IMG/VR virus record: IMGVR_UViG_3300020441_000003
Coordinates: 25,546-89,545 of that record
DNA from: a virus
Taxonomy: Duplodnaviria; Caudoviricetes
Direction: 5' to 3' (one strand)
DNA length: 64,000 bases
How positions within the stretch are numbered: the first letter of the stretch is position 1; every line of letters starts with the position of its first letter. A program made the position numbers and the translations under genes. Under the pieces are notes generated by a model. It did no database searches. It was not told the origin of the DNA and saw nothing but the letters and a program-made list of their open reading frames with translations. Positions 8,847-28,600 of the stretch are shown piece after piece.

Positions 8847-10055
8847 TTATCCAGTTATAGGACTGCCTGGCCACGAACCTGCTGGGTCACCGTCCCACCT
8901 AATTACAGGCGTTCTGCCTTGTCTTGCATATGTAGACGGACTTCTGTGATTGTATGTAAAAGGTGTTCGACCTTGTCTTGCATAAGTCGATGGTGATCTA
9001 TGGTTATAAGTCAACGGACTTCTATGTTGATATGTCAAAGGACTTCTATGTTGATATGTGCCAGGTTGTCTTGAATCTCTAATATTAGGTTCTTGTGCAT
9101 TTGAAGCCACTTGATAGATTGCAGGTTGTCTTGCATCTCTAATATTAGGTTCTTGTTGGTTTCTAATAAACGGATTCTGTGCATTAACAATAGAAGGCTG
9201 TTGTTGGTCACGAATATTAGGTTCTTGTGCATTTGAAGCCACTTGATAAATCAATGGTTGTCTTGCATCTCTAATGTTCGGTTCTTGTCCAGCCCTTATA
9301 AAAGGATTTTGTGCATTGGCAATAGAAGGCTGTTGTTGGTCACGAATATTTGGTTGTTGTGCGTTTGAGGCAACTTGATATATAAGAGGTTGTCTCGCAT
9401 CTCTAATATTAGGTTCCTGTTGGTCTCTAATAACAGGTTGTTGATTAGCTCTTATATTTGGTTCTTGTCCTGACCTGATATTTGGTTCCTGTGCATTTGA
9501 GGCCACTTGATAAATTAGTGGTTGTCTTGCATCTCTAATGTTTGGTTCTTGTTGCGATCTTATATTTGGTTCTTGTTGGTCTCTTATATTAGGTTGTTGT
9601 GCTGAACGAATATTTGGTTGTTGTGCATTGGAAGCCACTTGATAAATTAGTGGTTGTCTTGCATCTCTAATGTTTGGTTCTTGTGCATTTCTGATACTTG
9701 GTTCTTGAGCCGACCTGATATTTGGTTGTTGAGAAGACCTAATATTTGGTTCTTGTGCTGATACAGGATTTCTATATGTGAAAGGCGACCTGTGATTATA
9801 TGTAAAAGGCAACTGATAACCAACAGGGTTTCTGTAACCGAATGGTGATCTATGATTATATGTAAACGGATTTCTGTATGTAAAGGGCGACTGAAATGTA
9901 AATGGTTGTTGTCCTGCTACAGGGTTTCTATATGTAAATGGATTTCTATATGAATATGTTTGTTGACCAGACACAGGTGACCTATAAGTGAAAGGGTTTC
10001 TTCCACTGTTTGGTTGTCTTGCGTTTGCTATTGTTGGTTGCTGTGCTGACGGCAT
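8847..10055 (-). CDS. Octapeptide-repeat fibre protein (xxQEPNIR-rich partner)
   Basis: 8-aa repeats with invariant Pro; five DARQPLIYQVAS-containing units with 44-aa period. Confidence 0.85.
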   Translation of the reverse strand: MPSAQQPTIANARQPNSGRNPFTYRSPVSGQQTYSYRNPFTYRNPVAGQQPFTFQSPFTYRNPFTYNHRSPFGYRNPVGYQLPFTYNHRSPFTYRNPVSAQEPNIRSSQQPNIRSAQEPSIRNAQEPNIRDARQPLIYQVASNAQQPNIRSAQQPNIRDQQEPNIRSQQEPNIRDARQPLIYQVASNAQEPNIRSGQEPNIRANQQPVIRDQQEPNIRDARQPLIYQVASNAQQPNIRDQQQPSIANAQNPFIRAGQEPNIRDARQPLIYQVASNAQEPNIRDQQQPSIVNAQNPFIRNQQEPNIRDARQPAIYQVASNAQEPNIRDSRQPGTYQHRSPLTYQHRSPLTYNHRSPSTYARQGRTPFTYNHRSPSTYARQGRTPVIRWDGDPAGSWPGSPITG

Positions 10056-10058
10056 AAA

Positions 10059-11891
10059 CTATTTCGGTAAACCGCCCCCTGGATTCATATTTTCCATGTT
10101 ATGCACTAACATACCATTAGCAAAGAAATTATGATTTTCATTTACTCCCGATAAGTTATATACTTGCATGTCTGTGTTTTCGTTTATAGAAATTATTTCT
10201 AATCCTACATCGTCTGTTCTGTCAAACATAATCGCATCTGTCATTGAGAATAAACTATCACCAACTTTAAGTTCATGAGAGTTTACGCCCTCCATCCAAT
10301 CATGTTGTCTCTGACATTTTTCAACATCAAATGCTCCCCATTCTCCGTTAGTCATCATTAGTGGATGACTATCTGTGACTTGTAATATTCTTCCGTCTGA
10401 TAACTCTACATCATATATAGAGTCTATTCTTGGTACCATCACATGATATATTGATTTTGGTTCTATTATCTTTGTGCTTTCGTTCCAAGTCATTATGTAT
10501 TGTCCATTCACACAATGCTCGATAGGCGCATGACTGCCATCTCCTAACCAAATCATTGTGCCAGGTGCGAAACAACCGCCACCAAATGGTATCTGAATCG
10601 GATTTCTATGTTGATATGTAAACGGCGATTGAGATGTAAATGGTTGTTGTCCGTTTACAGGATTTCTATATGTAAATGGTGTTCTTCCTATAACTGGTTG
10701 TTGTCCATTTACAGGGTTTCTGTATGTAAATGGATTTCTTGCACTATTCGGTTGTCTTGCATTACTTGGTGATTGTGCTGACCTAATATTTGGTTCTTGT
10801 GCGTTTACAGGATTTCTATATCCTCTCGGCGTTCTTGCATTTCTGATATTAGGTTGTTGACCAGATACAGGTGATCTATAAGTGAAAGGCGATCTATGCT
10901 GATATGTAAACGGTGACCTATGGCCATAAGTAAGAGGCGATCTAAAGTTATAAGTAGACGGACTTCTATGTTGATATGTAAACGGCGCTTGATAACTTCT
11001 AGGGTCTTGATATATAGAAGGCGATCTATGTTGATATTCAAACGGACTTCTATGTTGATAAGTTGTAGGCGATCTATGTTGATAAGTTGCAGGTGACCTA
11101 TGTTGATATGTAAACGGCGCTTGATAACTTCTAGGGTCTTGGTATATAGAAGGCGATCTATGTTGATATGTAAACGGTGACCTGTGTTGATAATTAGACG
11201 GACTTCTATGTTGATAAGTTGTAGGCGATCTATGTTGATATGTAAATGGCGCTTGATAACTTCTAGGGTCTTGATATATTGACGGACTTCTGTGTTGATA
11301 TATTACAGGCGTTCTTAAATTATATGTAGACGGACTTCTATGCTGATATGTAAACGGACTTCTGTGTTGATATGTAAAAGGCGTTTGATAACTTCTAGGG
11401 TCTTGGTATATTGAAGGCGATCTATGTTGATAAATTATCGGTGTTCTTAAATTATATGTAGATGGACTTCTGTGTTGATAAGTTGCAGGCGACCTGTGAT
11501 TATATGTGAAAGGTACCTGATAACTTCTCGGGTCTTGATATATTGACGGACTTCTGTGTTGATATGTAAAAGGCGTCTGATTACTTCTTATATTAGGTTC
11601 TTGTTGTGACCTTATATTGGGTTCTTGTTGGTCTCTAATTACAGGTTCTTGTGCATTCGCAATATAAGGATATGGTTGTTGGCCATTTCTAATAAAAGGA
11701 TTTTGAGCGTTCGCAATATAAGGATAAGGCTGTTGAACGCTCTCCTGTCCTGATGCATTGTTCCAACCAGAAGGCGTTTTGATATAGATTTGATCTACAT
11801 CTTTCCATGTGCCTGAAGCTGTTTTTACCCAAGCACCTCGGGTTGCTGACCAACCTGAAGGAGTTTTTACCTTTTGTGAACCTGTTGCCAT
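10059..11891 (-). CDS. Octapeptide-repeat fibre protein (QHRSPxTY-rich) with N-terminal WVK docking domain and C-terminal Hint domain
   Basis: N-terminal KVKTPSGW..WVKT..WK; five QDPRSY units with 44-aa period; GGG|CFAPGT...HNFFANGMLVHN. Confidence 0.88.
   Translation of the reverse strand: MATGSQKVKTPSGWSATRGAWVKTASGTWKDVDQIYIKTPSGWNNASGQESVQQPYPYIANAQNPFIRNGQQPYPYIANAQEPVIRDQQEPNIRSQQEPNIRSNQTPFTYQHRSPSIYQDPRSYQVPFTYNHRSPATYQHRSPSTYNLRTPIIYQHRSPSIYQDPRSYQTPFTYQHRSPFTYQHRSPSTYNLRTPVIYQHRSPSIYQDPRSYQAPFTYQHRSPTTYQHRSPSNYQHRSPFTYQHRSPSIYQDPRSYQAPFTYQHRSPATYQHRSPTTYQHRSPFEYQHRSPSIYQDPRSYQAPFTYQHRSPSTYNFRSPLTYGHRSPFTYQHRSPFTYRSPVSGQQPNIRNARTPRGYRNPVNAQEPNIRSAQSPSNARQPNSARNPFTYRNPVNGQQPVIGRTPFTYRNPVNGQQPFTSQSPFTYQHRNPIQIPFGGGCFAPGTMIWLGDGSHAPIEHCVNGQYIMTWNESTKIIEPKSIYHVMVPRIDSIYDVELSDGRILQVTDSHPLMMTNGEWGAFDVEKCQRQHDWMEGVNSHELKVGDSLFSMTDAIMFDRTDDVGLEIISINENTDMQVYNLSGVNENHNFFANGMLVHNMENMNPGGGLPK
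10098..10574 (-). other. Hint (intein-like) autoprocessing domain, non-splicing type
   Basis: Block A CFAPGT at residue 440, block B VTDSHPL, block F VYNL, block G HNFFANGMLVHN; residue after HN is Met; no endonuclease insert. Confidence 0.9.
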
Positions 11892-14384: not shown

Positions 14385-14590
14385 TAAAAGGTTCCTCCAT
14401 CTATAGTCGAGCTGTCTAATCTAGTATCAAATCTAGAATTTGTAAAATAGAGATTTGATGAGCCTTCTGAGAGATTATCTGTATCTAAATTAGACACTGC
14501 GTTAGAAACCACTTTACCATTATTATCAATGACATCTGTTGTTCCGACAGAAACTCCATACTCTACTCTAAATTTTTTAGTGTCAGCCAT
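14384..14590 (-). CDS. Mini fibre/adaptor protein ending IDGGTF
   Basis: N-terminus resembles that of the 824-aa fibre; one SEGSSNLYFT module; stop/start overlap with the next gene. Confidence 0.75.
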   Translation of the reverse strand: MADTKKFRVEYGVSVGTTDVIDNNGKVVSNAVSNLDTDNLSEGSSNLYFTNSRFDTRLDSSTIDGGTF

Positions 14591-14654
14591 ATTGTCCTTA
14601 TATAAGTTTGTGTTATAACACCTTTATTTATGAATGTTTTATGTTTAAAAAAAG

Positions 14655-14682
14655 AAAAAGGGGGAGAACTCCCCCTTTTTTT
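14655..14682 (-). terminator. Rho-independent terminator (bidirectional-looking)
   Basis: AAAAAGGGGGAG-AA-CTCCCCCTTTTT perfect stem flanked by A/T tracts, at the end of the 136-aa gene. Confidence 0.88.
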
Positions 14683-15091
14683 AAGCGTCTATTAAAGTTC
14701 TATCGAATTTGATTACTGTTGAATCTGAACTCGCTGGAGTGCATCGTAATCTAACATCTGAACCACTAATGTCTGCATCAAATGTAGCTAATGTTGCATC
14801 TAGTAATGTGCCGTATTGTGTAATATCAACACTGGTACCATCATGCACCATCATAATTTCAGTCGAATGGAAATTAGTTCCTTTAGACATTGCAACGATA
14901 TATCTAGCTGCTCTAAAATCTGCTTTCGCAAAAGTATCTAAATTGAATTGAGTTGTAGCAGTTTTAGTCACTGCATCTCGTTTCTTATCTTTAGTACCCA
15001 CTGATTTTGTAGTAGATATGATATCATTCGTTGAATCATATTCAATATGACGGATAAGTTCAGCCAATTTAAAAGATTTAGTTATTGCCAT
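14681..15091 (-). CDS. Virion structural/adaptor protein
   Basis: RAARYIV...HSTEIMMVHDG...QYG domain, paralogous to the C-terminus of the 275-aa protein. Confidence 0.7.
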   Translation of the reverse strand: MAITKSFKLAELIRHIEYDSTNDIISTTKSVGTKDKKRDAVTKTATTQFNLDTFAKADFRAARYIVAMSKGTNFHSTEIMMVHDGTSVDITQYGTLLDATLATFDADISGSDVRLRCTPASSDSTVIKFDRTLIDA

Positions 15092-15101
15092 TTCTTACCC
15101 C

Positions 15102-15929
15102 CTATGTATGTCTAATTTGAAATGTATCAATTGTTGTATTCGTATTTGCAGGTGTGACAAGTAATCTCATATTACCTGAATTTATATCTGCACTTAAAGA
15201 AAATAACGATGAGTTTGAAAAAACATCACCGTATTGAACAAAGAATGCATTTGAACCGTCATTAACTAACAATACTTCAGCGGCGTGTGTGCCAGCTGAG
15301 GCATGTGTAGCACTAATGACATATTTTACTGTTTTATTTGCTACTGCATTTGACGACAATACTTGGTTTGCTGTTGTTGCTGAAAATGATGTTGCTGTGT
15401 AAGCGCCTTGAACTAAATCTGTAGCGTTTACGGCAACTACTTCTAAAACATCACCATTAATTGCGTTCTGAGCCAAAGTGATAGTTGATGTATTTGTGGC
15501 AGTATAATCTGTTCCACCATCAACAAGTTTGACACCATTTAAGTATACTTGTTCTGTCCCTATATTGTATGCTAATGAATTACTATCATCATCATTACCT
15601 GTAAAAACAGTTGTATTACTTGATACAGTGTATTTAAAAACTGTTGTTGCACCACCTGATGTGGCACTTCCAAAAGTTAAACTTCCAGAACCATCTGTTT
15701 TTAAAACTTGACCATCTGAGCCATCACTTGTTGGAAAAGAGTAAGCGCCATTAATAGTTAAAGTAGTAGGAATAGTTCCGACTTCAACAATAGCTGCTGA
15801 GCCGTCATTTTTCTCAGTATATAAACGACCATGATAGGTGTTTACTGCGAGTTCCCCTAAACTTAAATCAGAAGTTGTAGGGACATCGTTCTGAGTAGAA
15901 CTCCTTTTTAACTGTATGACTGTTGCCAT
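15102..15929 (-). CDS. Fibre/adaptor protein with Mtd-N-like N-terminus
   Basis: MATVIQLKRSS...LSLGELAVNTYHGRLY; internal VYLNGVKL..GTDYT module. Confidence 0.72.
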   Translation of the reverse strand: MATVIQLKRSSTQNDVPTTSDLSLGELAVNTYHGRLYTEKNDGSAAIVEVGTIPTTLTINGAYSFPTSDGSDGQVLKTDGSGSLTFGSATSGGATTVFKYTVSSNTTVFTGNDDDSNSLAYNIGTEQVYLNGVKLVDGGTDYTATNTSTITLAQNAINGDVLEVVAVNATDLVQGAYTATSFSATTANQVLSSNAVANKTVKYVISATHASAGTHAAEVLLVNDGSNAFFVQYGDVFSNSSLFSLSADINSGNMRLLVTPANTNTTIDTFQIRHT

Positions 15930-15956
15930 CTTTCCCTCCTATTGGTTAAGCGTTAA

Positions 15957-17414
15957 TTAAAATGTTCCGCCGTCAATAGCAGTGATTGATACTGCACCAG
16001 ATGATACTGTAAAGTTTGCAGATGCGAATGAAGCAATACCTTTATTAGTAGTAGTTGCATCTTCACCAGCGATAGTTATGCTACCAGCGCCGTTAGTCAC
16101 ATCGATACCCTCACCAGCAGAGATTGTTCCTAATTGCATGTCACCATTTGAAGAATGACCCATTAGAATCTGACCATTTGTTGGTGCAGAACCATCAATA
16201 CTTGTGATTGAACCTGAGAGTGCAAGACCTGATGCTTCTAATCCACCAAATACTGCGCCAAGGGCGGTACCTGAGAATGTTGAAGAAGAATCTGTCGCAC
16301 TTCCCAATGCTATGAATTTACCTGTTGAATCATCGAAACCGAAGAAACCAACTTTTGCACCTGATGAGTTATACTTAAATTTAATACCTCTGTCTAGGTT
16401 GTCATCTGAACTGTCATCGCCAATTTCAAAAACAGGGTCAGCGATTGACACTGTAGTTGAATTAACAGTAGTAGTTGTTCCACTTACTGTCAAGTTACCA
16501 GCGATTGTGACATTATCAGGTAACCCGATTGTGACGGTGTTTCCTGAACCTGCTGTTGTTATCTCGTTTGCTGTTCCAGCGAATGTTAATGTTTCACTGT
16601 CTAGATCAATTGCTAATGCGCCACCTGAATCTGCTTGAAAGTCCAAGTCTTGTGCTGTAATTAAAGACTGAATTTTGTCTTGAACGGCCGCTGATGTCAT
16701 GATAGATACATCATCGTCACTAAAAGATTCACCTGATGTTTGAACCATTGCACCTGCCAATGAACCAAATACAACTGCACTAGCAGCTAATTGGTCTGCG
16801 CCTACGGCGTCATCGGCTATCATTGCTTGTTCTACAGCATCGTTAGCGATTGTTAATGCTCCGTTTGCAGCTAAAGTTGCATCTCCTGATACTGAAACAT
16901 TATCAAATGAATTTGAACCATCATGAACAAGTATTTGTCCTGATGATGCAGATGATATGTCTGTATCTGATGCGCCTGCAATCGAACTTGTAGTAGATAC
17001 GAATGATAATACTCCTGAACCGTTAGTACCTAAAACCTGACCGTTTGAACCATCTGAACTAGGTAATGTTAATGTTATATTACTACCTATTGTGTCTGGT
17101 GCTTTAAGACCTACGAAGTTTGTTCCGTTATCGGAATCTTCCATAATTTTTAAAGTACCGCCAGATGATGACCCATTACCAACTAAGAAGTCGGCAGGTG
17201 TAGCACTTGAACCATCTATGATATCGGTGTAATATTTACCACCAACTTCATGAATAACTGCTGAACCACCTGAGTCTACAGATTCTATGTATAACTTAGC
17301 AGAAGCACCACTATTCGATCTATCTTGCACATACGCTAATTCGCCCTCAGCAAGATCACTTACTGCTGGCGCACTCGCTCCTGTGCTTCTTTTGATTTGA
17401 ATTACTGTTGCCAT
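15957..17414 (-). CDS. Tail fibre protein with Mtd-N-like N-terminus, ends IDGGTF
   Basis: MATVIQIKRST...LAEGELAY; fibre repeats; DRGIKFKY..GFFGFDDS module. Confidence 0.75.
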   Translation of the reverse strand: MATVIQIKRSTGASAPAVSDLAEGELAYVQDRSNSGASAKLYIESVDSGGSAVIHEVGGKYYTDIIDGSSATPADFLVGNGSSSGGTLKIMEDSDNGTNFVGLKAPDTIGSNITLTLPSSDGSNGQVLGTNGSGVLSFVSTTSSIAGASDTDISSASSGQILVHDGSNSFDNVSVSGDATLAANGALTIANDAVEQAMIADDAVGADQLAASAVVFGSLAGAMVQTSGESFSDDDVSIMTSAAVQDKIQSLITAQDLDFQADSGGALAIDLDSETLTFAGTANEITTAGSGNTVTIGLPDNVTIAGNLTVSGTTTTVNSTTVSIADPVFEIGDDSSDDNLDRGIKFKYNSSGAKVGFFGFDDSTGKFIALGSATDSSSTFSGTALGAVFGGLEASGLALSGSITSIDGSAPTNGQILMGHSSNGDMQLGTISAGEGIDVTNGAGSITIAGEDATTTNKGIASFASANFTVSSGAVSITAIDGGTF

Positions 17415-17542
17415 TTCTTTCTCCTAAGAAAATAGTTTTTTTAAAATTTTAAAATTTCTCTTCACTATCGAGAACATTATATACCAATCCACTCACTATG
17501 TGGGTCGTGTCTCAATGAATGACACCTTGATTGTTGTTTAAT

Positions 17543-17550
17543 TATTTATA
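17543..17550 (-). promoter_or_regulatory. T4-type late promoter TATAAATA
   Basis: Exact consensus about 130 nt upstream of the 485-aa gene. Confidence 0.75.
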
Positions 17551-17553
17551 CGA

Positions 17554-17763
17554 CTAGAATGTTCCACCATCAATAACAGTGGTTGTTTTCCACTTGTCTG
17601 ATGCTTGGTCGTATTGAAGAAGGCCTTTATTTGTTTCGGCTGCCTCTACATCTGAAAGTTCTTGAATTGATTTTGTTGCGAGATTTACAGAAGATGCACC
17701 AATAGAAACTTGTTTCGCTCTAACATTTGGGTTTGCGACTATTCTTGCCTTTACTGTTGCCAT
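17554..17763 (-). CDS. Small adaptor protein ending IDGGTF
   Basis: LSDV......GLLQYDQASDKW collar-like module plus C-terminal motif; TAATG coupling to the upstream gene. Confidence 0.7.
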   Translation of the reverse strand: MATVKARIVANPNVRAKQVSIGASSVNLATKSIQELSDVEAAETNKGLLQYDQASDKWKTTTVIDGGTF

Positions 17764-18095
17764 TATCGGGTTACTCCTGGTGTGACTATTGCTTGTCCTT
17801 CGACAACTCTTGTTTTATCTCCTGCACCGCTTGTAATATTTAGATCATAAACATACCTGCCAGCATCTAGAGCTGCTGTGACTGAATCTGTCAACTGCAT
17901 AACTACTTGACCATTTGCACCATTATGAGATGTTGAAAATGTTGCAGATGCGTTTGTAGAACCGTAAGTCTTTCTCATTTGAGCGGCTATCGTATAACCT
18001 GTTAAATCTAATGCATTACCTAATGCATTTTGAACATCAACAGTCAATGAGAAATCACTTCCTTGGTCTATGAATATATTACTTATGATTGCCAT
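17763..18095 (-). CDS. Conserved virion structural protein (BppU-N-like)
   Basis: NIFIDQGSDF...DLTGYTIAAQMRK...GRYVYDL...RVVEGQAIVTPGVTR. Confidence 0.72.
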   Translation of the reverse strand: MAIISNIFIDQGSDFSLTVDVQNALGNALDLTGYTIAAQMRKTYGSTNASATFSTSHNGANGQVVMQLTDSVTAALDAGRYVYDLNITSGAGDKTRVVEGQAIVTPGVTR

Positions 18096-18112: not shown

Positions 18113-18886
18113 TTAATCGCTAAATTGTGCAGTAGGTACCGATTGATGTATTTTTTCTACTGTCGAACTATCTTTTTTCACAAATACTTGACTTACTTTC
18201 GATACACCTTGTGCTTGTTTCTTAAATACACCTTTAACTTTTGCTACTTGTTGTATAGGTCTAGTTGTAATATATGGTTGTTGATATATAAACGGACTTC
18301 TATACCCATATGGTAATGTATATGGTTGTTGAGTATTAGCAGATGTTTGTGCGTTTCTTATAAAAGGACTTTGTGCATTCGAAGGATTCCTATAAGTTGA
18401 CGGCGATCTATGTTGATACTGTATAGGACTTCTATGATTATAAAAAGTCGGTGATCTATGTTGATAGATTACTGGTTGTCTAGAATCTCTGATATTAGGT
18501 TCTTGTTGGTCTCTTATATTTGGTTCTTGTGCATTTCTAATATGTGGATTTTGTCTTTCAGCAGGTTGTCTTCCGATATATGGACTTTGTGCATTTTTAA
18601 TTACAGGTTCTTGATACGCAACAGGATTTCTGTAGAATGCAGGTTGTTGTTGAGCTCTCTCGTTAGGTTGTTGAGCATCTGCGATATACGGATATGGTTG
18701 TTGTTGACTTCTAATAAAAGGATTTGCTTTATTTCTAATAAAAGGATTCTGCACACTGTAAGTTGACGGTGATCTATGTTGATACGAAGATGGTTGTCTT
18801 GCATTTCTGATATGTGGATTTTGCACATCATAAGATGCAGGTTGTCTTGCAATTATCGGAGTTGTAAACTGATATGCTACGCCCAT
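18113..18886 (-). CDS. Octapeptide-repeat fibre protein with C-terminal docking domain
   Basis: QEPNIR/QNPFIR/QHRSP repeats; C-terminal KVKGVFKK..VSKVSQVFVKK. Confidence 0.82.
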   Translation of the reverse strand: MGVAYQFTTPIIARQPASYDVQNPHIRNARQPSSYQHRSPSTYSVQNPFIRNKANPFIRSQQQPYPYIADAQQPNERAQQQPAFYRNPVAYQEPVIKNAQSPYIGRQPAERQNPHIRNAQEPNIRDQQEPNIRDSRQPVIYQHRSPTFYNHRSPIQYQHRSPSTYRNPSNAQSPFIRNAQTSANTQQPYTLPYGYRSPFIYQQPYITTRPIQQVAKVKGVFKKQAQGVSKVSQVFVKKDSSTVEKIHQSVPTAQFSD

Positions 18887-18889
18887 TGC

Positions 18890-20467
18890 TTATTCTCCCT
18901 CTTCCTCGTCATCATTATTAGATTCAGCACTGGCACCAACTGCAAAAACAATTAGTAAATCACATTTATGTTCTACATTTGTGTCTAAATCTTTTATCAT
19001 AAATTCTAAAATAGTTGATGAACCCCTATTATCAGCTGCGGAACCCTCACTTCCGTTAGTATCAACAGTAGTGCTATAACCTATTTCAAGTCCGTGGGTG
19101 CCTAGATTTTGATATGAAGTTGTTATTCCAGTCACACCAGTCGGAACTCCTAAAGCATGTTTTCTAGTAGTGGTCTCATCTGGATTACCATCATTGGTAG
19201 TTACCGAAGTCACACCAGTGGTTGTTCGTGGCCATTGCTCTGGTGTGCCTAAGCATCCCATATCACTTGCTAGTTCAGCATAATTAGATGCATCTGGAGT
19301 ATATCCCTTACTGGCAAGTTGACCATTCCATTGTGAGACATTTAAACTGTAAGGAGATGCTGTCGGGTTTGCATAATTAACTTTTACTTGAGCTCTTGAA
19401 GCTCCTATATTTGTAAGTTTAAATATTTGAGAAAAAGAAGAAGTTCCTATATCACTGGTTGTATAACTAAATGAACTAGATGCTGATGATGACATATTAC
19501 CTATTCTAGAATGATGTGGTGTCGTATTTGATAAAGTATCAACTGAACTAGCCTCTCTTACAAGAATTTCAACATCATTAGTATTTGTATATTGAACTTT
19601 AAATTCAAATCCAGCACCTGCTACGGCAGTTGAACCAGAGGCACTTGTATCTAAATCAAATCCACCATCAATACCAATAATACTTGAAGCTCCTTGTTGT
19701 CTTATTGAATTGCCAGTGTTCGTATCATTTGGTATACCAGCACCTGTGCCAAATCCTGTTATAAGTTCTGATGCTCTTGCAATATATTCAACTTGACCTA
19801 CTGTTAAAAATCCTGATGCAGGTTGTTGATGACTGTAAGTTGTTTGATATGAACCTATTGACGGACTTCTAAAGACATATGTAAATGGTGTTTGTGCGTT
19901 TCTTATAAACGGATTTTGTGCATTTGCAATCGATGGTGATCTATGACTATATGTGCTTGGACTTTGATGCTGATAGATAACTGGATTTCGACCTGTCGCC
20001 TGATATGAAGACGGACTTCTATGTTGATATATTATAGGGTGTCTGTATGCAACTGGACTTCGATAAGTTCCTGGTGATCTATGTTGATATGTTGAAGGCT
20101 GTCTTGCTTGATAACTTACCTGATAAATCGATGGTGATCTATGTGAATATTCAAATGGACTTCTATGGTTATAAGTCAACGGACTTCTATGTTGATATGT
20201 AAACGGAATCTGTTGCGCTCTAATATTAGGTTCTTGTTGTGACCTTATATTAGGTTCTTGTTGGTTTCTAATAAAAGGATTCTGTGTTGCTACAGGATTC
20301 TGATATGTTGACGGTGATCTATGAGCGTAAGTAGAAGGAACCTGATAGATTGCAGGAGTTCTTGCATCTCTCTGAGCAATTACTGGTTCTTGTGCGTTCT
20401 TTGATGCCCTAGCTATATAAGGTTGTTGAAAGGCCGCTGGGTGTTTGATAAAAATATCATCTGACAT
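18890..20467 (-). CDS. Octapeptide-repeat fibre protein with C-terminal globular (putative receptor-binding) domain
   Basis: N-terminal ~215 aa of QHRSP/QEPNIR repeats, then ~300 aa Ser/Thr/Gly-rich non-repetitive domain. Confidence 0.8.
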   Translation of the reverse strand: MSDDIFIKHPAAFQQPYIARASKNAQEPVIAQRDARTPAIYQVPSTYAHRSPSTYQNPVATQNPFIRNQQEPNIRSQQEPNIRAQQIPFTYQHRSPLTYNHRSPFEYSHRSPSIYQVSYQARQPSTYQHRSPGTYRSPVAYRHPIIYQHRSPSSYQATGRNPVIYQHQSPSTYSHRSPSIANAQNPFIRNAQTPFTYVFRSPSIGSYQTTYSHQQPASGFLTVGQVEYIARASELITGFGTGAGIPNDTNTGNSIRQQGASSIIGIDGGFDLDTSASGSTAVAGAGFEFKVQYTNTNDVEILVREASSVDTLSNTTPHHSRIGNMSSSASSSFSYTTSDIGTSSFSQIFKLTNIGASRAQVKVNYANPTASPYSLNVSQWNGQLASKGYTPDASNYAELASDMGCLGTPEQWPRTTTGVTSVTTNDGNPDETTTRKHALGVPTGVTGITTSYQNLGTHGLEIGYSTTVDTNGSEGSAADNRGSSTILEFMIKDLDTNVEHKCDLLIVFAVGASAESNNDDEEEGE

Positions 20468-20471
20468 ATCA

Positions 20472-22388
20472 TTATATTAAGAAGAATAAATGACCAACAT
20501 CTTTTCCTGAGCCACTTGGTAATCCGCCTGAGAGATCACTATCAGTAATTACACTATAATCAAGTTCGACATTATCACTATTAATCTTTACTCCGTTTTG
20601 TGTATTAACACTCAATGTTGTTCTGCCGTCTAGAGTTGTATCATCGCCTCCATCGGGATTGTCAACATATGCTTTAGCAAGTCCATTACCTGCAACGATA
20701 ACATCATTTACTCTATCGTCTGTAAAGTATTTATTAGTTCCTTCAGAAGTAGAATCAGTGGTTGTAGAGTTGTTAGCAACTTGCAAATTACCAGAACCAT
20801 CAAATGCTAAAATTTGTCCTGCACTAGGACTTCCTAATGAACCTACATCTGATAGTGCGGCTATACTAGCAGCTGCTATTCTGGCATCTGCTCTTGCATT
20901 TGTAAAGTAGAGATTACTTGAACCCTCTGTTATTGAATCTGTATTTGATATTGCAAAGTCTACTGTGCCATCACCATCATTATATGTGACTGTAATACCT
21001 GTTTCTGTATTACCAGTAAACATACCACCAACGGCATCTTGAGCTCTTTCATTTGTAAAATATAGATTAGATGAACCCTCTGATAAACTATCTGTGTTTG
21101 GCAATACTGCACTTACTCTTGCATCTGCTCTTGCGTTTGTAAAGTAGAGATTTGTATTTTCTGTTAAATTTGCAGTTGTATGATTTGATATACTTGAAAC
21201 TGTTCCTGTTAAGGCGCCTGTTGCAACATCTAATACTGTTGTTGAACCATCCGCAGGAGATTTTATAGTTGATAATCTTACACTTGCATCTGTTCCGTTT
21301 GTGCCACTATCTAATATCGATTGACCACCACTTGATAAAACATCACCAGTTAAATTACCTGTTGCATTACCAACTAGATTACCAGTGAAAGTTGTTGAGT
21401 GAACATTTGACCATTTAAGTGTTGAAAGACCTAAAGTGTATGCATTGTTTGTATCTGGTCTTAGATTAGATGCGGCTTTACCTGTGAATGTAATTGTATC
21501 TGATGCGTTATCACCTAATGTTGTATTACCATTTACATTTAAGTTTGCTGTTAATGTAGTATTACCTGTGACTGCTAAATCGCCACCTATTGATGCATCA
21601 TCGCTAACTGCTAAATCATCTGTTGATACTAAATGTTCTGCTTGAACTTGTCCTGAGAATGTTCCGTTTACTGCACTTGTTAATGAACCACTTGATAGTG
21701 ATGCAACACTATCTGATATGATTGGTGCCTGAAACTTTTTACCTGCAACTGTAGTTATGATATCATCTTCTGCAAAAGTTTTACCTGCAAGTTGTAATGT
21801 AAATCCTGATTCTAATGTTGTGGTTGCAGACGAGTTATCACCGTTTAAGATAACACCATTTGCATTTATATTTTGTATTGTATTCTCAGCAGTTTTCTGG
21901 AAGAAAGATGATACATCACCTGTGATATTTGTTCCTATGAATGCACCTGTGAAAGAATAGATTGTTAGTTGATCACCAGCCGCCATCTGTTTTGATTGAC
22001 CAGATGCATAGTCACCAATTAGTGTAATACCTGTATGTGAAGAACCTGACGGTAATGCGACCTGATAGTCGACATTCTCTCTTAAATGTTCTTCATTTTT
22101 AAATACTTGAACTTTCTCGTCTTTGTAGATAAGTGTATTATTAAATGCATCAGCACCACTAAAACTTGCATCACCAGCTGATACACCATTTTGACCTACT
22201 GCAAATACAAACTCTTGAAAGAAGAATTGTTTATCTTCTAATACATTAATTGCATCTACTAGTGTATCATTATTACCAGCTTTTAATGCATCACGAAGAC
22301 CAGATACATCACCTACATCGAATGCAAGTTCGTTATAGGTCTTTCTAAAATCTTCTATTGTGCTGAAGTTGTCTACTGTTTTAGCCAT
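20472..22388 (-). CDS. Baseplate-proximal tail fibre protein
   Basis: N-terminal STIEDFRKTYNEL baseplate-binding-like motif; four TxxLxEG.NLYFT..R repeats (approx. 20710-21185); C-terminal PSGSGKDVGHLFFLI. Confidence 0.75.
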   Translation of the reverse strand: MAKTVDNFSTIEDFRKTYNELAFDVGDVSGLRDALKAGNNDTLVDAINVLEDKQFFFQEFVFAVGQNGVSAGDASFSGADAFNNTLIYKDEKVQVFKNEEHLRENVDYQVALPSGSSHTGITLIGDYASGQSKQMAAGDQLTIYSFTGAFIGTNITGDVSSFFQKTAENTIQNINANGVILNGDNSSATTTLESGFTLQLAGKTFAEDDIITTVAGKKFQAPIISDSVASLSSGSLTSAVNGTFSGQVQAEHLVSTDDLAVSDDASIGGDLAVTGNTTLTANLNVNGNTTLGDNASDTITFTGKAASNLRPDTNNAYTLGLSTLKWSNVHSTTFTGNLVGNATGNLTGDVLSSGGQSILDSGTNGTDASVRLSTIKSPADGSTTVLDVATGALTGTVSSISNHTTANLTENTNLYFTNARADARVSAVLPNTDSLSEGSSNLYFTNERAQDAVGGMFTGNTETGITVTYNDGDGTVDFAISNTDSITEGSSNLYFTNARADARIAAASIAALSDVGSLGSPSAGQILAFDGSGNLQVANNSTTTDSTSEGTNKYFTDDRVNDVIVAGNGLAKAYVDNPDGGDDTTLDGRTTLSVNTQNGVKINSDNVELDYSVITDSDLSGGLPSGSGKDVGHLFFLI

Positions 22389-22611
22389 GTAATTTCTCTA
22401 TAATATCTTTCAATAAATCTTTTATTTCTGTTACCTCTTGTTTAAGAGTATTTATTTCAGAACGCTGAGCTTTCATAACTTCTCTGCGTTTCATCACTAA
22501 TCTATAATGTTCAGTATTAGTATTTATTATAGCACTTGAAGTTTCATCTCTTATCAAGTCTATATGTCCTTCTACTTTACTATACTTACTCATTATGCTA
22601 ATGCCATACAT
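22381..22611 (-). CDS. Conserved small coiled-coil protein
   Basis: KVEGH.DL.RD..S.AIINT...EINTLKQEV; usual neighbour of the DUF4815 gene. Start probably MSKY. Confidence 0.65.
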   Translation of the reverse strand: MYGISIMSKYSKVEGHIDLIRDETSSAIINTNTEHYRLVMKRREVMKAQRSEINTLKQEVTEIKDLLKDIIEKLHG

Positions 22612-25600
22612 CTAAGTGCTGATACTAATGGCACGATAGATGTATTCTGTGCTTGTCCTACTATCTTAATCTGGAATGCTGTGAACTCTGCAAGACCATC
22701 TGCTGTATATTCATATTCTTTAAAGTTTCTAGCATCTTGTTCAAGTGCGATATCTGGTGAACCATCTGTGTTAAAGAATTCAAATCCTAAATCATCGATA
22801 GGTGTTGTTTCATCGTTCTTCAATATCTTGAACATGAATTTTAAATCTGTGTCTGGCGGTCTAAAGTTATCTGCAATAACTTTTATTGATGATGCAGGAT
22901 TTTTCAATGCAACTTTTCTTGTTATATAAACAAACTCATTATTATCACCGTCTGGTTCTGTAGATGGTGTGTAAGCTCTTCCTGTTGATACATCGCCTGA
23001 TACATCAATATCATTAATTCTATTCATGATACCTAATGCACCTATTGTGCCTGTATCTATGATTGGTGATATATTTGGATTTGCAGTTATTAATTGCAAT
23101 CTACATTCTAATGATTTTGTTGTAGGTCCACCTGAAACTTCATTGACTTCATTAACAGATGATGCAATAACACTTGGTCTTTCAAAGAAGTTATTATCAT
23201 TTAATGTTATAAAGTCATTTGTTGATCTCATGAGATATGCAGTGTCTAAACTTGATGATTCTGGAGAATTCATACCTGTTCTTCTTACACTCGGTATTAA
23301 ATCACAATCTTTAAATGTTAATGATGGTATCATTGTATGTAATACATCGTAATATAAATTATTTGTCACAAATACACTGCTACCACCACCTATTGTAGAT
23401 TGTATAGCGTTAGTATATGATAAATGGAAACTTGATAAATCAGGTGTCACGCAGAATGAATCTATATCGTAATGGTTTATACTATTGAATACTTGATTCA
23501 ATGCTGATACAGGTAAACCACCTAGTGTATCACCTACACTTGCAATTGTCAATGAGACTGCTGTGCCTGAACCATTTACATCTGCAACTGTTATTGTTTC
23601 GTTAGCTGCATATCCTTGACCTGGATTACTAATAGTTGCACTTGTAGCATTACCAGATGCATCTGTTGTTATTGTTTGTATTACACAACCACCATTTGGA
23701 TTACCACTTGAATTTGAATGTGTTTGAGTTTTAGCACTTACATTAAATGTTGTGCTGTTTGAACCTAATGCAGTAGAAGGAACACTAACTGTTAATACAC
23801 CATTAGTTTTATCACCTGCTACTCCTGATATTACAACATTTGAATTTGTTGAATAATTACCGTGTGAGTATGAATAGAATCTAGCAAATGATTGATTACT
23901 GTATACTTCTACACTGTTCTCTTTTATTAGATTTGCAGGTAAATGTTCGTTTTCAAATATGACATTTCCTGCAACATTTGTTGTAAACTTGGCTATCTTC
24001 ATATGGAACTTTAAGTCGTCCATTTGTTCTGCACTCCAAGTAGATGCGTTTTGTGAAGTAAATAATGAACCTGCGTATGGTTGTCCTGATATTACTTGAC
24101 CTGTTATTAAGTCTACTTCTCCCATTCTTGAAATGAAACACTCGTAATTGTTTGAATTTGAGTAAACAACAAAACACATTTCTTTGCCTTCTTCAAGATA
24201 TACAGGTGATTCAAAACTAAATGTAGTTGCAACTGAACCATCTTCTGATATGTTTACATCTCCTGGATTCTTTGTGACTATTGAGAATGGTAATGTCACT
24301 TTACCAGGATATCCGTTTACTACATCTCTAATTTCTACTGAAACTGGTAATGATGCATCTTTTGATTTAAAGAATAGATCAATAGAAGTCAACATCATAC
24401 CGCCATCTGCTTCTACTAAGAAAGTTTCTGCTAATGGGTCCATCCATCCTTCGTTTGTTCTCTCTGCTCTAAACACTCTTTCATCATCTGGCGCCACAAA
24501 TCTATCGAATGGTGGAACTGGAGGTTGAACAGGCAACGGCACAGGCGTTGGTGCAGGTGTCGGTGCTGGCGTAGGCGCTGGTGTCGGCGCTGGAGGCGGA
24601 GGCGGAGGTGGATTAGGTGTCAACGCCGGAGTTGGAGGCGGAGGCGGTGGCGGAGGAGGTGGCGGTGGTGCTGGAGGCGGTGGAGGTGGAGTTGGTGGTA
24701 ATGAACCATCACTCTCAATATTTAATCTTTCACCTCTTCTCATTATCTGCCTTTCGCCAGACAATCTCTCCATAATTACACGGCCATTTCTTGTAGATAC
24801 TATCTCTGTTTGAGATGTATTTAATAATCCTTGTGCCTGATAATTAGAACTTGCTCTTGAATCAGGATTGTTTAAATTAGTTGCACTAGATGTGACTAAT
24901 ACTTGTCTTTGACCTGTAGGGAATCTCTGATTATCGTCATTTGGTATGTTAAAATGACATATAACTCTTCCGTTACCATCTGTTTTTACACCAGATGTCA
25001 CTGTCGTGCCTGAGTCTTGTGAATAGTTTGCATTGTCAGGTCTTACAAATTGGTCTACTCTAATACCATCAAAGTATATAAAGTGATTTGTGTTTGGTTT
25101 TAAATTTGTTGCATCAATCTTAATCTCTCTTGATCTGATGAAAGGTATAACTGATACACTAACAACTCTGTCATTTCTTGTTTCTACAAAGTCTTCAACT
25201 ACTGATGTTCTTACACCTGTTCTTGATTGTATCTCAGGCGTATCTGTAATTTCTCTAGTTATTGTTGTGCCTTGTGTCCATTCACCGCCTTGAGCTGGGT
25301 CGCCAGACCAAGAACCTGGTACTGCAGCTACTGATTCTGTCTCTACGACTTGTGGTTCACCGACCCATGTTGTTTGCCATTCATTCCAGACTGTTCCTAG
25401 AGAGTTTTCGTTTTCTGCTAATACTGCATCAAAGTTTCCTTCTCTGTTAATCCTGACATCAGGAAGTTGTTCGTGGTCATTCCATATATCTGTTTCTGGT
25501 GTAAGTTTAACATTACCAATAAATGCAAAGACATGATATGGGTTTACATTGATATGTCTTGATGCTTTATTTTGATTTACATAAGATATTTCTGAAAATG

Positions 25601-28600
25601 GTAATGTAATAAGATCACCAGTCTTTTGATAACCTGATGATTGTGCAGTGTTTAATGAAATATCAAAGAATTGTGTATAATTTTTAGGTCTTAAATGACC
25701 TAATTTTGTATCTATTGCAACATTGTAATCTGGATGTGTGACATCTCCTACTTTGTGACCTCTAAAATTATCTACTAAAAATCCTGATTTGAATCTATCT
25801 AAACCATCTGCATCTAAAACTTGTAATGTTTGTGTGTCTTTTTCTAATAAAGATAATGCTGTGACTCTTTCTAAGTTTGTGACTCTTTGATTAATTTTAC
25901 CAATATCTGACATGGTAAATCTTCTATAATCTCTTGACCTTGAACGAATCTCATTTGCATTTTTAGTAAATGGTGGCACAAACAATTCGAACATTTCAAT
26001 CGCATCATCTATGGCGGCTGGTTTTCTAGGCGTAATCGAAGGAACACCTTGTGCTAATTGAAAACTTCCACTTTTGTGTAAGAAAATCTTATCTATTCTA
26101 GGCACATAAAAAGATATATTACCTTTTGTCATAGAAGTTGGTAATGGACATCTAGAGAACGATGCTCTAGTTGTTGTAATACTTGGAGATGATAACGATG
26201 CCTCAAAACTTCTTGACTCATATGCAAATGGTGATACTAAATGACCTGCACTTGAATGATCTGATAAGTTTATTGTATTCTGTATATCAAAGTCGGTACT
26301 AGATTGACCAAATGTAGAACTTCCAAATATTTGACCAACAGATGGTCTATAGTCTACTGTATCTGCTAATTCAAATGTTCCGTCTGGTTCAAAACCACCT
26401 GCATCTACTTTATTTGGCGAGAATATTGGTATTTCATCATAATCAACACCAGAATAAGAAGATACATCATAATAATCACCAGAACCACCAACAAAGTAAT
26501 CAAACAATATTGTTATCGGGTTATTAGGTGTTGGTTCACCTGTCTTTAATATTAATTTACCAAGATCGTAATAACCATCTCTTTGACCGTTATCTAAGAA
26601 ATATCTATTTTTAATATCTGGTGAACTTGTGCCAATAGATGTTAGTGTTGCAACTGCACCTGATGTTTCGTCTACTACAGTTTCGCCTGCTGTAAATTTA
26701 GCATTACCAAGATAGTAGAAAAATGCAGTAGTATCATCTACAACTGTATCAATAAGTTTTGCACGAACACCTGTTGTTTGTCCTTTTACAATATTACCTG
26801 CACCAAATGTTCCTGACGATACATTAAATACTGCGTTTGGTGGTGTTGCGACTTCTACACTTTCTGAACTATCTGTTGTTGTAGTTCCTGGAACTGCTTC
26901 GAATATACCTCTAATTTTAAATATATCTGATACACCTAAACTGATTTCTTTGTGGTCATATGCAGTTCCATAAAAGTTTGTTTGTGCATCACTCTTCATT
27001 ACTCTTAATGCACGATACTCTCTTAAATCTTTACTCTTTGCAGTTGGGCTATTTACACTTACTGTATATGATGCTCTTACAATAGCATTTTCATCAGCAG
27101 ATGTTCCTATTGTGACTGCTCTGTTATTACCTGAGGCAGCTGCAAATGTCACATCGTCAGCATGAAATACTGCACCATCGATTCTCCCACTTGATGGACT
27201 TGCAGTTGCATTCATAATTGCAAATTGATAATTATCGTTATTAACTGGTTCAAAACTTTCGTTTGATTGTTTTGTTAATGTAATGGTACCACTTGCACTA
27301 ACTTGAAATTCTTTTTGTATTTTGACTGTAGTTTCTGTGCCTGTATGTGTTTTGACATAATCTCTTGGCCATGCAAAGATAGATGCTGACTGATCTTGAT
27401 TATAAAGTTTTGCTCTCTTTCTAATAAGACCTGCACCTGGATTTGCAATTACACCATTTGAACCAGGTGATGCAACTGTTTGTGCATTTGAATTATCTGT
27501 GACTGTATTAATTACTTGTTCAGCACCATTACCATCTACAATTATATCGCCTGGTCTTAATTCGTTTAAGAATGCTGTTCCTGTTCCTGTTAATGCACCA
27601 CTTGATGACAATACTGTTGCACCCGATATAATTTTAACACTATCTGTTGGTATAGTTGCAGTGAAGTTTTTGTCTGCACTTGAAGCAGTTGATGGTTCTT
27701 GACCAACACCTCTTGCATCTTCTATATTATAAGTTCTGATAGCAGTTGGATTTACTGTTGTGCTACTATAATCACCAACACCTTTTACTTCTAATGCATC
27801 TGCTGTAGTAAATGTGCCGACTACATCATGCAACATTACAAAGTTATTTGAATGGTCTGAATATGCAACTATACCTGTTGCACCTGAACCACCAGCACTT
27901 GTGCCAGTATCTACAATACCTGTGACTTTATCACCTGGTTTAAATTCGTTTGCATCACCAATTGTAATACTAATTTTTGTAAACATCTTGATATCAAATA
28001 GATATAGATTGCTTAATGTAGATGATTGTTCATCTATGCATCTTACTCTTGCAAAACCGATATGTGTGTTAGGTATTGTATTTCTTGTTGATGCATCTGA
28101 TTGATCAATAACAGTATCTAAAAGTTTGATAGGTTTATATGATGTCATTGTTGTAGAATCACCAAACTCTGGAAGACCATGCACATTTTGTAATCTTAAT
28201 TTATTACCTAATCTCGCAGGTGTATTTGCGTTTGATAATGATTCTGTTGTTCTTGCTTTATTGATGTTTAGATTTGTTGTGCCGTCTTTTGTGACATCAA
28301 AACCTTTGACATATGCTTTACCTGGTGATATTTGCATGACGACTTTACTTTCGTCACCACCTTGGAATGATTCGTAAAAACCTCTATTGAAACCATCTAT
28401 TAAATGTTCTCTGAACGAACTTGTAAATTGTCTTACTACAAAGTCACCGTTTGCATCAAAGGTTCTTCTTGCTAATGCTTGTTCTATGTGACCATATATT
28501 GGTCTATTGATTTCTAATTCTATAACACCTGCATTTACTCTTCCAAGTTCTACAAAGTTTGTATCTGTTGTGTCTGTTAAACTAAATTTAGAAAGTGTTA

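What the first reader, a model, noticed from the sequence alone, without database searches (positions are those of the whole stretch)
18113..20467. Second mirror-complementary pair with a different A/B pattern
Seen: reading the 525-aa protein N to C against the 257-aa protein C to N, AHRSPSTY faces NAQSPFIR, QNPV faces RNPS, BBB faces AAA, the switch unit AQQIPFTY faces DSRQPVIY, AAA faces BBB, and near the far end QHQSPSTY-SHRSPSIA faces NKANPFIR-SVQNPFIR, NAQNPFIR faces QHRSPSTY, NAQTPFTY faces NARQPSSY and VFRSP faces DVQNP; the middle is more irregular. The pattern differs from pair 1 but follows the same rule, so it is an independent replicate. Distinct strings could also stop cross-pairing between the two fibres. 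Here the distal end carries a ~300-aa globular domain (putative adhesin) instead of a Hint domain.
Basis: partly seen in the sequence, partly recalled or inferred. Interest (0 to 1): 0.9.

Follow-up and report, generated by a model that had tools for sequence, protein, structure and literature searches.

The report
Mirror-coded two-protein phage fibre shaft
Two neighbouring genes of an uncultured marine T4-like phage encode proline-punctuated repeat proteins that match each other position by position when one is read backwards, which points to the two chains zipping together head-to-tail into a thin fibre held in register by a pairing code that I could not find described.

Summary
Observation confirmed. 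The 525-aa protein (18890-20467, -) and the 257-aa protein (18113-18886, -) carry about 210 residues each of Pro-centred 6/8/10/12-residue units.

- **Proline mirror:** with one constant (i + j = 224, 0-based), 24 of the 26 shaft prolines of the long protein mirror a proline of the short one. The best parallel offset gives 15. Spacing shuffles give a mean of 13 and a maximum of 20 (0/2000).
- **Unit types:** they are complementary only in antiparallel orientation (z 4.7, against 0.1 in parallel).
- **Specificity:** pairings with the window's other pair stay at chance level.
- **Generality:** the rule holds in about 30 distinct gene pairs from other marine phage contigs. Orthologues of this pair show compensatory Q:R to R:Q swaps in 6 of 28 mirrored columns, and matched 10-11-residue indels.
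- **Single-chain forms:** related phages carry one gene in the same slot. It keeps both conserved termini, and its two arms mirror each other.

Best reading: an antiparallel, register-locked two-chain shaft, probably a beta-ribbon about 70 nm long. The conserved ends would be proximal and the 300-aa beta-rich domain of unknown fold would sit at the tip.

No physical evidence exists, and structure predictors gave nothing for the shafts. This scan has noted the same design on other phage DNA. I found no description of it in the papers searched.

The parts
18890..20467 (-). Gene for the 525-aa long strand ('p525')
   Evidence: ORF. No Pfam or PHROG family. 22 orthologues, all from marine metagenomes and of the same length class.
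19814..20467 (-). p525 residues 1-218: invariant N-terminus MSDDIFIKH, then a shaft of 26 Pro-centred units
   Evidence: 25 consecutive even Pro-Pro spacings. Prolines P16 to P216 mirror p257 prolines P210 to P10. pI 10.2. The N-terminus is invariant in 19 of 19 orthologues.
18893..19813 (-). p525 residues 219-525: acidic beta-rich globular domain, the proposed distal tip
   Evidence: AlphaFold2 pLDDT 84, pTM 0.86. No significant fold match. 37-93% identity among orthologues. pI 4.4.
18887..18907 (-). Junction between the two genes: purine-rich run GAGGAAGAGGGAGAA, then TAA stop, then GCA, directly before the ATG of the second gene. Both genes are in the same frame.
   Evidence: Sequence read. 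The purine run looks like a ribosome-binding site. Translational coupling is inferred, not shown.
18113..18886 (-). Gene for the 257-aa short strand ('p257')
   Evidence: ORF. No Pfam or PHROG family. 125 representative clusters among 1.84 billion proteins.
18251..18886 (-). p257 residues 1-212: shaft whose proline spacing and unit types are the mirror complement of the p525 shaft
   Evidence: pI 10.2.
18116..18250 (-). p257 residues 213-257: conserved Lys/Val-rich C-terminal tail (VAKVKGVF...VFVKKD...EKIHQSVPTAQF). In the mirror register it lies beside the p525 N-terminus.
   Evidence: Conserved in 14 of 14 family members. Kept at the C-terminus of the single-chain forms.
17763..18095 (-). 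110-aa gene that always follows the pair or the single-chain form; a candidate assembly factor
   Evidence: phrog_1084 (E 3e-29) and phrog_3304 'L-shaped tail fiber protein assembly' (E 4e-22). Conserved synteny. Its function was not tested.
20472..22388 (-). 638-aa fibre-like structural protein directly upstream; a candidate carrier to which the zipper attaches
   Evidence: phrog_697 structural protein. Shares fibre motifs with the 824-aa protein that precedes pair 1. A fibre gene occupies this position in all related loci.
8847..11891 (-). Pair 1 of the same window, used as the non-cognate control: 610-aa strand with a C-terminal Hint domain, and 402-aa strand
   Evidence: 47 of 49 prolines mirrored at one constant. 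No match with pair 2 strands. Hint/intein PF14890.

Best explanation
The two proteins are made from adjacent genes that are probably translationally coupled. Their roughly 210-residue repeat regions pair antiparallel and residue for residue into one extended two-chain shaft.

Each unit is 6, 8, 10 or 12 residues long and has one proline. All proline spacings are even, so the prolines lie on one side of an extended strand. I infer that they occupy positions that do not need a backbone NH. The shaft would then be a long two-stranded beta-ribbon of about 70 nm, possibly bundled further.

The units come in two types:
- Type A is NAQEPNIR-like, with Q two residues before the proline and R three after it.
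- Type B is QHRSPSTY-like, with R two before and Y three after.

A pairs with B. In the best-supported register, residue P+k of one chain faces residue P'-2-k of the other. That places R opposite Y, E/Q/N opposite S/T, H opposite N, and a large residue at B+1 opposite a small one at A-3. In that register A:A would put like charges opposite each other (E:E, R:R), and B:B would put the two P-2 arginines diagonally next to each other.

The order of A and B units, together with the irregular unit lengths, acts as a barcode. It fixes the register and keeps this pair from pairing with the second zipper pair of the same phage.

The conserved p525 N-terminus and the conserved p257 C-terminal tail meet at one end, which I infer is proximal and attached to the upstream fibre protein. 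The variable 300-aa domain sits at the other end as the likely host-binding tip.

Shown here: the mirror symmetry, the complementarity, the covariation and the single-chain relatives. Inferred: physical binding, beta-ribbon geometry, stoichiometry and the role as a tail fibre.
For: 1. Proline mirror: 24 of 26 prolines at one constant. Parallel best is 15. 0 of 2000 spacing shuffles reach 24. The pairing runs end to end, and M1 of p257 falls at the start of the p525 globular domain.
2. A/B complementarity is antiparallel only: z 4.7 against 0.1. There is one sharp register peak and none at 16 or 24 residues away.
3. Generality: in 31 distinct adjacent pairs, a median 0.91 of prolines are mirrored at one constant, against 0.50 for non-cognate pairs. 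Antiparallel z is 4 to 8.6 in 16 of the 27 distinct pairs tested. Q:R complementarity is 85% at the true register, against 56-77% when slid.
4. Covariation within this orthologous family: 6 of 28 mirrored columns swap Q:R to R:Q in both proteins. 145 of 175 cells are Q:R. A 10-11-residue indel is matched in both partners.
5. Residue-level coupling: the mutual-information matrix is antiparallel and peaks at offset -2, with even offsets above odd ones. Inside uniform runs, B(+1) couples with A(-3) at z = 19: F with A/G/K, L with Q, S with A/N. R:Y accounts for 264-287 of 549 contexts, and neither Y:Y nor R:R is among the ten commonest pairs.
6. Gene fusion or fission: 8 of the 232 homologues fetched carry both conserved ends. 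7 were tested, and 6 of them have mirror-symmetric arms at 10 or fewer of 1000 shuffles. The two whose contigs I fetched occupy the same slot between the fibre gene and the 110-aa gene.
7. All 25 (p525) and 28 (p257) consecutive proline spacings are even.
8. Context: the genes lie in the fibre cluster next to a VrlC-like baseplate gene of a T4-like marine myophage.
Against: - There is no physical or expression evidence.
- Both shafts are strongly basic, about +14 each, so pairing must overcome like-charge repulsion.
- The offset -2 register and the ribbon geometry rest on covariation that is partly confounded by shared descent and by super-repeats.
- Six of the roughly 37 pairs mirror poorly under a single constant.
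- The stoichiometry is unknown: a plain heterodimer, or three such pairs around a threefold axis.
- Neither face of the proposed ribbon is clearly hydrophobic.
Confidence: 0.7

Rival explanations
1. The two chains do not touch each other. Each lies in opposite polarity along a third periodic scaffold, for example the upstream trimeric fibre protein, and the mirror pattern reflects that scaffold.
For: A fibre-like 638-aa protein is always encoded directly upstream. No direct binding has been shown.
Against: Compensatory Q:R swaps and matched indels between the two proteins need direct coupling. So does the local coupling of B(+1) with A(-3). A scaffold would also have to vary in step with each pair, yet the upstream proteins have no matching periodicity. 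Single-chain forms with mirrored arms point to a fold-back hairpin.
Confidence: 0.06
2. The chains pair antiparallel, but as rungs of a wound multi-strand beta-helix or solenoid with prolines at the corners, rather than as a flat two-stranded ribbon. That would give a much shorter and thicker rod.
For: Octapeptide repeats build the triple-stranded beta-helix of T4 gp5 (own knowledge; the T4 tail review PMC3004832 came up for 'octapeptide', and I did not read the passage). Runs of three units (24 residues) occur in this pair.
Against: Complementarity has one register peak and no second peak one turn away at 16 or 24 residues. A wound two-chain helix would give each strand two neighbours. The unit lengths are irregular (6, 10, 12) but exactly mirrored.
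Confidence: 0.12
3. The proteins are disordered, highly basic, Pro/Gln-rich tentacles or cross-linking substrates, similar to cementoin or to curli-type amyloid. They would stick to cell surfaces or nucleic acid, and the complementarity would have no structural role.
For: pI is about 10.2 for both shafts. Predictors leave the shafts unstructured. There is a borderline Cementoin hit in pair 1's long strand (27.9 bits, cut-off 27). Pelagimyophages carry CsgGF without CsgA/B (PMC9004378).
Against: Disorder or adhesion does not explain an exact proline mirror over 200 residues, compensatory swaps or matched indels. There is no Cementoin hit in p525 or p257. Each shaft has only 2 Lys. There is no signal-peptide-like N-terminus. 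The genes lie in the fibre module, not next to a secretion system.
Confidence: 0.04
4. The mirror pattern is a by-product of DNA-level inversion or chance in low-complexity sequence.
For: The sequences are repetitive and of low complexity.
Against: Both genes are on the same strand. The only inverted DNA repeat in the region is 18 nt long. The antisense frame of A units reads SDIRFLL-like peptides, not B units (+ strand ORF 18458-18766). Shuffles, the parallel orientation, slid registers and non-cognate pairs all fail.
Confidence: 0.01

Closest known systems
Needle of the T4 long-tail-fibre tip, gp37. Homotrimer with seven iron atoms along the needle (PMC6957217). Fold-back of each chain at the tip is from my own knowledge of Bartual et al. 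2010.
   Same: A thin phage fibre built from extended strands that run out to a tip and back, so that antiparallel segments pair. The single-chain relatives of this pair have that out-and-back layout.
   Different: gp37 is one gene. Its strands are held by His-x-His iron sites, and no such motif occurs here. It has no two-letter complementarity code, no proline register and no split into two genes. There is no sequence similarity to any PDB chain.
Triple-stranded beta-helix of T4 gp5C with VxGxxxxx octapeptide repeats (own knowledge)
   Same: Eight-residue periodicity in a phage fibrous beta structure.
   Different: gp5C is a parallel homotrimer whose repeat has Val and Gly. The chains here have no V.G pattern, are antiparallel, form a heteromer and have variable unit lengths.
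Heterospecific coiled-coil zippers such as Fos/Jun (own knowledge)
   Same: Partner choice and register are written in complementary residues along two chains.
   Different: Those are alpha-helical, mostly parallel, and use heptads with e/g charges. A proline every 6-8 residues excludes helices here.
Streptococcal antigen I/II stalk, where Ala-rich and Pro-rich repeats of one chain pair into a long stalk
   Same: A long, thin stalk made by two antiparallel repeat regions that place a globular domain at the far end.
   Different: That stalk pairs an alpha-helix with a polyproline-II helix within one chain. Here both strands carry prolines at even spacing, which fits a two-residue (beta) period rather than a three-residue (PPII) period.
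Two-protein chain-like fibres of podophage A1002 (PMC13730344)
   Same: A phage fibre that needs two different proteins.
   Different: Those fibres are strings of globular dimers docked on a rope protein. They are not two extended chains paired residue by residue.

Membership tests
Fibre / host-recognition module of T4-like marine myophages | Encoded among fibre genes next to the VrlC-like baseplate gene | tested here: met
   VrlC-like 2268-aa gene at 22593-29399, 35% identical to those of Melnitz and Mosig. Fibre PHROGs flank the pair. The same order is seen in 8 related contigs.
Fibre / host-recognition module of T4-like marine myophages | Protein present in the virion as a fibre | not testable with these tools
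   No proteomics or imaging is available. No cultured phage carries the family in the isolate collection (low-complexity filter on).
gp37-type fold-back needle | His-x-His metal sites and sequence or fold similarity to gp37 | tested here: not met
   No HxH motif in either shaft. No PDB sequence hit at E up to 1.
gp37-type fold-back needle | One chain runs to the tip and back | tested here: inconclusive
   This window has two separate chains. Related phages have one chain with mirrored arms.
Triple beta-helix octapeptide repeat (gp5C type) | VxGxxxxx repeat in a parallel homotrimer | tested here: not met
   No V.G pattern. The complementarity is antiparallel and between two different chains.
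Cementoin (PF10511) | Pfam match above the gathering score; Gln/Lys hexapeptide transglutaminase substrate | tested here: not met
   No hit for p525 or p257 at E up to 0.01. Only 2 Lys per shaft. Only pair 1's long strand has a borderline 27.9-bit hit.
Collagen-like triple helix | Gly-X-Y triplets | tested here: not met
   No run of three G-x-x triplets in either shaft.
Curli subunits CsgA/CsgB | Sec signal peptide and curlin repeats | tested here: not met
   No hydrophobic N-terminal segment. No Pfam hit.
Hint / intein-tipped strand (as in pair 1) | C-terminal Hint domain | tested here: not met
   PF14890 hits the 610-aa protein only. p525 ends in a beta-rich domain of unassigned fold.

The most novel reading that the evidence does not exclude
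These phages use a true protein-protein pairing code. It has a two-letter unit alphabet (A pairs with B) plus variable unit length, and is read antiparallel like a nucleic-acid duplex. The code would set partner, register and length of a two-chain beta-ribbon at about 0.33 nm per residue. It would evolve by compensatory changes and allow several orthogonal zippers in one virion. If so, it is a natural, programmable building principle for protein fibres.
Probability: 0.5. Interest if true: 0.95.

Novelty: categorically new. Interest (0 to 1): 0.86.

Why it matters
If the two chains really zip as the sequences imply, this is a fibre architecture with no described counterpart. Length, register and partner specificity would be readable directly from sequence, and covariation between two proteins would be as clear as in an RNA helix.

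It would explain a set of unannotated genes in the host-recognition cluster of abundant marine myophages. It would show how a small genome builds fibres of 70-130 nm from a few hundred residues. It would also offer protein designers a natural set of orthogonal, sequence-addressable beta zippers.

It is directly testable by co-expressing two small proteins.

Tried and rejected
**Structure prediction**
- Complex prediction of p525(1-235) with p257 using alignments: no verdict. The score was 0.00 and the partner pLDDT was under 50. This is evidence neither for nor against binding.
- AlphaFold2 on the in-frame read-through of both genes (TAA read as Q, 784 aa, alignment A7): the globular domain folded, but both shafts came out at pLDDT about 30 with no secondary structure, so there is no model of the shaft.
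- A block-diagonal alignment of both families could not be made. MAFFT laid one family's repeats on the other's.
- The ESM Atlas model of p257 alone has pLDDT 0.49.

**Fold of the C-terminal domain**
- Foldseek against PDB gave nothing at E below 1e-3.
- The wide VIA-align search gave a best Z of 4.2.
- BFVD gave one weak row.
- The Atlas gave TM about 0.3 to Ig/PKD/cadherin-like models.
- The fold stays unassigned.

**Searches that found nothing**
- PDB sequence search with p257 and with pair 1's 402-aa strand.
- blastn and tblastn against 50,697 isolate phage records (the low-complexity filter may hide hits).
- Paper searches for the motifs and for similar fibre designs.
- No similarity was found between the p257 tail and the N-terminus of pair 1's long strand.

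**Readings considered and rejected**
- Parallel pairing.
- Self-pairing: no self-mirror was found within either chain of the seven related pairs checked or in the single-chain homologues; p525 and p257 themselves were not screened.
- Origin by DNA inversion.

**Caveat on one count**
- The 100% even-spacing count is circular, because my parser breaks chains at odd spacings. I rely on the unfiltered lists instead.
Full report
**Where this is.** The window is part of an 89.5-kb IMG/VR virus record that CheckV rates 49% complete. GC content is about 34%. The region is the fibre and baseplate cluster of a T4-like marine myophage. A 2268-aa VrlC-like protein at 22593-29399 is 35% identical to those of the OM43 phage Melnitz and the SAR11 phage Mosig. 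The neighbouring genes match fibre and structural PHROGs. Four genes on the - strand encode proline-punctuated repeat proteins:
- p525 (18890-20467) and p257 (18113-18886), the finding
- a 610-aa and a 402-aa protein (8847-11891), pair 1

Neither p525 nor p257 matches any Pfam or PHROG family. p257 matches no PDB chain by sequence.

Both proteins consist of units of 6, 8, 10 or 12 residues with one proline each. p525 has 25 consecutive even proline spacings and p257 has 28. There are two unit types. Type A is NAQEPNIR-like and type B is QHRSPSTY-like, and recurring units such as DSRQPVIY and AQQIPFTY mark the switch from A to B.

Under one constant (i + j = 224, 0-based), 24 of 26 p525 prolines mirror a p257 proline. 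The mirror runs from P16/P210 to P216/P10. The whole repeat regions therefore pair end to end, and M1 of p257 falls where the globular domain of p525 begins. The best parallel offset gives 15 matches. Shuffling the spacings gives a mean of 13 and a maximum of 20 (0 of 2000 reach 24).

Unit-type complementarity is significant only in the antiparallel orientation: z = 4.7 (0/1000) against z = 0.1 in parallel. It has one sharp register peak. Combining strands of the two pairs gives chance-level values. The pattern does not come from the DNA: both genes are on one strand, the only inverted repeat is 18 nt, and the antisense frame of A units does not read as B units.

**It is a general, co-evolving rule.** Two scans of IMG/VR returned 52 loci. 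They hold 31 distinct adjacent gene pairs, always a long strand followed at once by a short one.
- A median 0.91 of prolines are mirrored under a single constant, against 0.50 for non-cognate combinations.
- Antiparallel A/B complementarity reaches z = 4 to 8.6 in 16 of the 27 distinct pairs tested, with very different patterns and lengths of up to about 470 paired residues.
- The residue two positions before the proline is Q opposite R in 621 of 728 mirrored positions (85%). This falls to 56-77% when the register is slid by one to three units.

I fetched seven orthologous p525/p257 pairs from metagenome contigs.
- Each pair mirrors under one constant.
- A 10-11-residue insertion in the long strand is matched by one in the short strand (the constant is 224/225 in some pairs and 235/236 in others).
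- 6 of 28 mirrored columns show Q:R in some orthologues and R:Q in others, so both proteins changed together.
- 145 of 175 cells are Q:R.

This is the protein analogue of compensatory base changes in an RNA helix.

**Residue-level register.** I compiled 549 non-identical mirrored contexts.
- The mutual-information matrix is clearly antiparallel: positions after the proline in one chain inform positions before it in the other.
- It peaks on the antidiagonal at offset -2, and even offsets score higher than odd ones.
- Within uniform B runs facing A runs, the variable residue B(+1) couples specifically with A(-3) of the facing unit at z = 19. F goes with A/G/K, L with Q, and S with A/N.

In this register the facing residues are as follows:

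| Position in one chain | Position in the other | Residues seen |
|---|---|---|
| +3 | +3 of the neighbouring unit | R:Y in 264-287 of 549 contexts; neither Y:Y nor R:R is among the ten commonest pairs |
| -1 | -1 | E/Q/N opposite S/T |
| proline | -2 | proline opposite Q or R |

Even spacings and an even offset are what an extended two-stranded antiparallel sheet would need if all prolines of both chains are to sit in non-hydrogen-bonded positions. That geometric reading is my inference. Shared descent and super-repeats inflate these statistics, so I hold the exact register less firmly than the pairing itself.

**Single-chain relatives.** Among 232 homologues, eight start with the X-type N-terminus (M-S/A-D-D/E-I-F/Y-I...) and end with the Y-type tail (...EKIHQ...). 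I tested seven full-length ones of 446-541 aa. In six of them the N-terminal and C-terminal arms mirror each other at 10 or fewer of 1000 shuffles. The facing units are complementary, for example NGQEPNIR opposite DHRSPFTY, and the same end contact appears as in the two-gene form (QQPY opposite TTRPI).

Two of these forms sit in exactly the slot that the two genes occupy here. The order is VrlC-like gene, 67-68-aa gene, fibre gene, fused gene, 111-aa gene, 72-73-aa gene. A chain with mirrored arms must fold back on itself. The fused forms therefore independently support antiparallel pairing. They also place the variable part at the hairpin tip and the two conserved termini together at the base.

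**Anatomy and proposed working.** The p525 N-terminus (MSDDIFIKH) is invariant in 19 orthologues. The last 45 or so residues of p257 are conserved across the family. The p525 C-terminal domain varies between 37 and 93% identity.

The C-terminal domain folds confidently into a beta-rich structure (pLDDT 84, pTM 0.86). It has no significant match in PDB, BFVD or the ESM Atlas. Calling it an adhesin is therefore reasonable by position only.

The genes are separated by TAA-GCA, and a purine-rich run precedes the second ATG, which suggests coupled translation. At 0.32-0.34 nm per residue the paired region would be about 70 nm long, against about 125 nm for pair 1. Both shafts are very basic (pI 10.2) and the tip domain is acidic (pI 4.4).

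**What failed.** The complex predictor gave no verdict. AlphaFold2 on the read-through of both genes left the shafts unmodelled. The Atlas model of p257 alone is of low confidence. None of this counts for or against binding. No cultured phage in the isolate collection carries the family. The family is small, with 125 representative clusters in 1.84 billion proteins.

**Comparison with what is known.** I found no paper that describes these motifs or this design.
- The nearest known architecture is the fold-back needle of T4 gp37. It is a homotrimer held by iron-binding histidines (PMC6957217), and the shafts here have no HxH motif.
- Octapeptide beta-helices (gp5C), coiled-coil zippers, the antigen I/II stalk and the two-protein chain-like fibres of phage A1002 each share one aspect. 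None shares the antiparallel, two-gene, two-letter complementarity.
- Earlier notes of this scan report the same design in other phage genomes. I treated those notes as leads and retested the points I used.

**Verdict.** Direct antiparallel pairing is very likely, about 0.85. The specific beta-ribbon model, the register and the tail-fibre role are inferred, about 0.5-0.7. Nothing has been shown physically.

Noticed in passing
L069:3001-4377, L071:3001-4536 (also P0029, P0132, P0160, P0161): Related phages have one gene where this window has two. The chain keeps the long strand's N-terminus and the short strand's C-terminal tail. Its two arms mirror each other around a tip region in the middle of the chain.
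   Followed up: yes
window 17763-18095 (-) and 17554-17763 (-): A 110-aa gene (phrog_1084; also matches 'L-shaped tail fiber protein assembly' phrog_3304) and a gene of about 69 aa always follow the zipper pair or its fused form. They are possible assembly factors.
   Followed up: partly
window 14384-17763 (-): Three proteins (68, 485 and 69 aa) end in IDGGTF. Two proteins (485 and 275 aa) start with MATVIQ(I/L)KRS. These look like matching end tags on successive fibre parts, as first-stage notes also remarked.
   Followed up: no
window 22593-29399 (-): The VrlC-like 2268-aa protein contains a run of about 60 residues that is almost pure Pro with Ala and Thr (PPPPPPAPPPPPP...TPAPTPAP). It looks like a long rigid linker.
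   Followed up: no
window 10059-10598 (-): Pair 1's long strand ends in a Hint/intein-type domain (PF14890, E 1e-9) where pair 2 has the beta-rich domain. Many homologues of the family carry PF14890.
   Followed up: no
window 11910-14384 and 20472-22388 (-): The fibre proteins that precede each zipper pair share the motif SEGSSNLY(F/H)TNER and end in similar hydrophobic C-termini (GDLWILYS and GHLFFLI). These are possible docking sites for the zipper base.
   Followed up: partly
L006, L034, L035, L037, L050, L051: Some adjacent repeat-protein pairs mirror poorly under a single constant (0.44-0.58 of prolines). They may have units without proline or a shifted register, or they may be a different subfamily.
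   Followed up: partly
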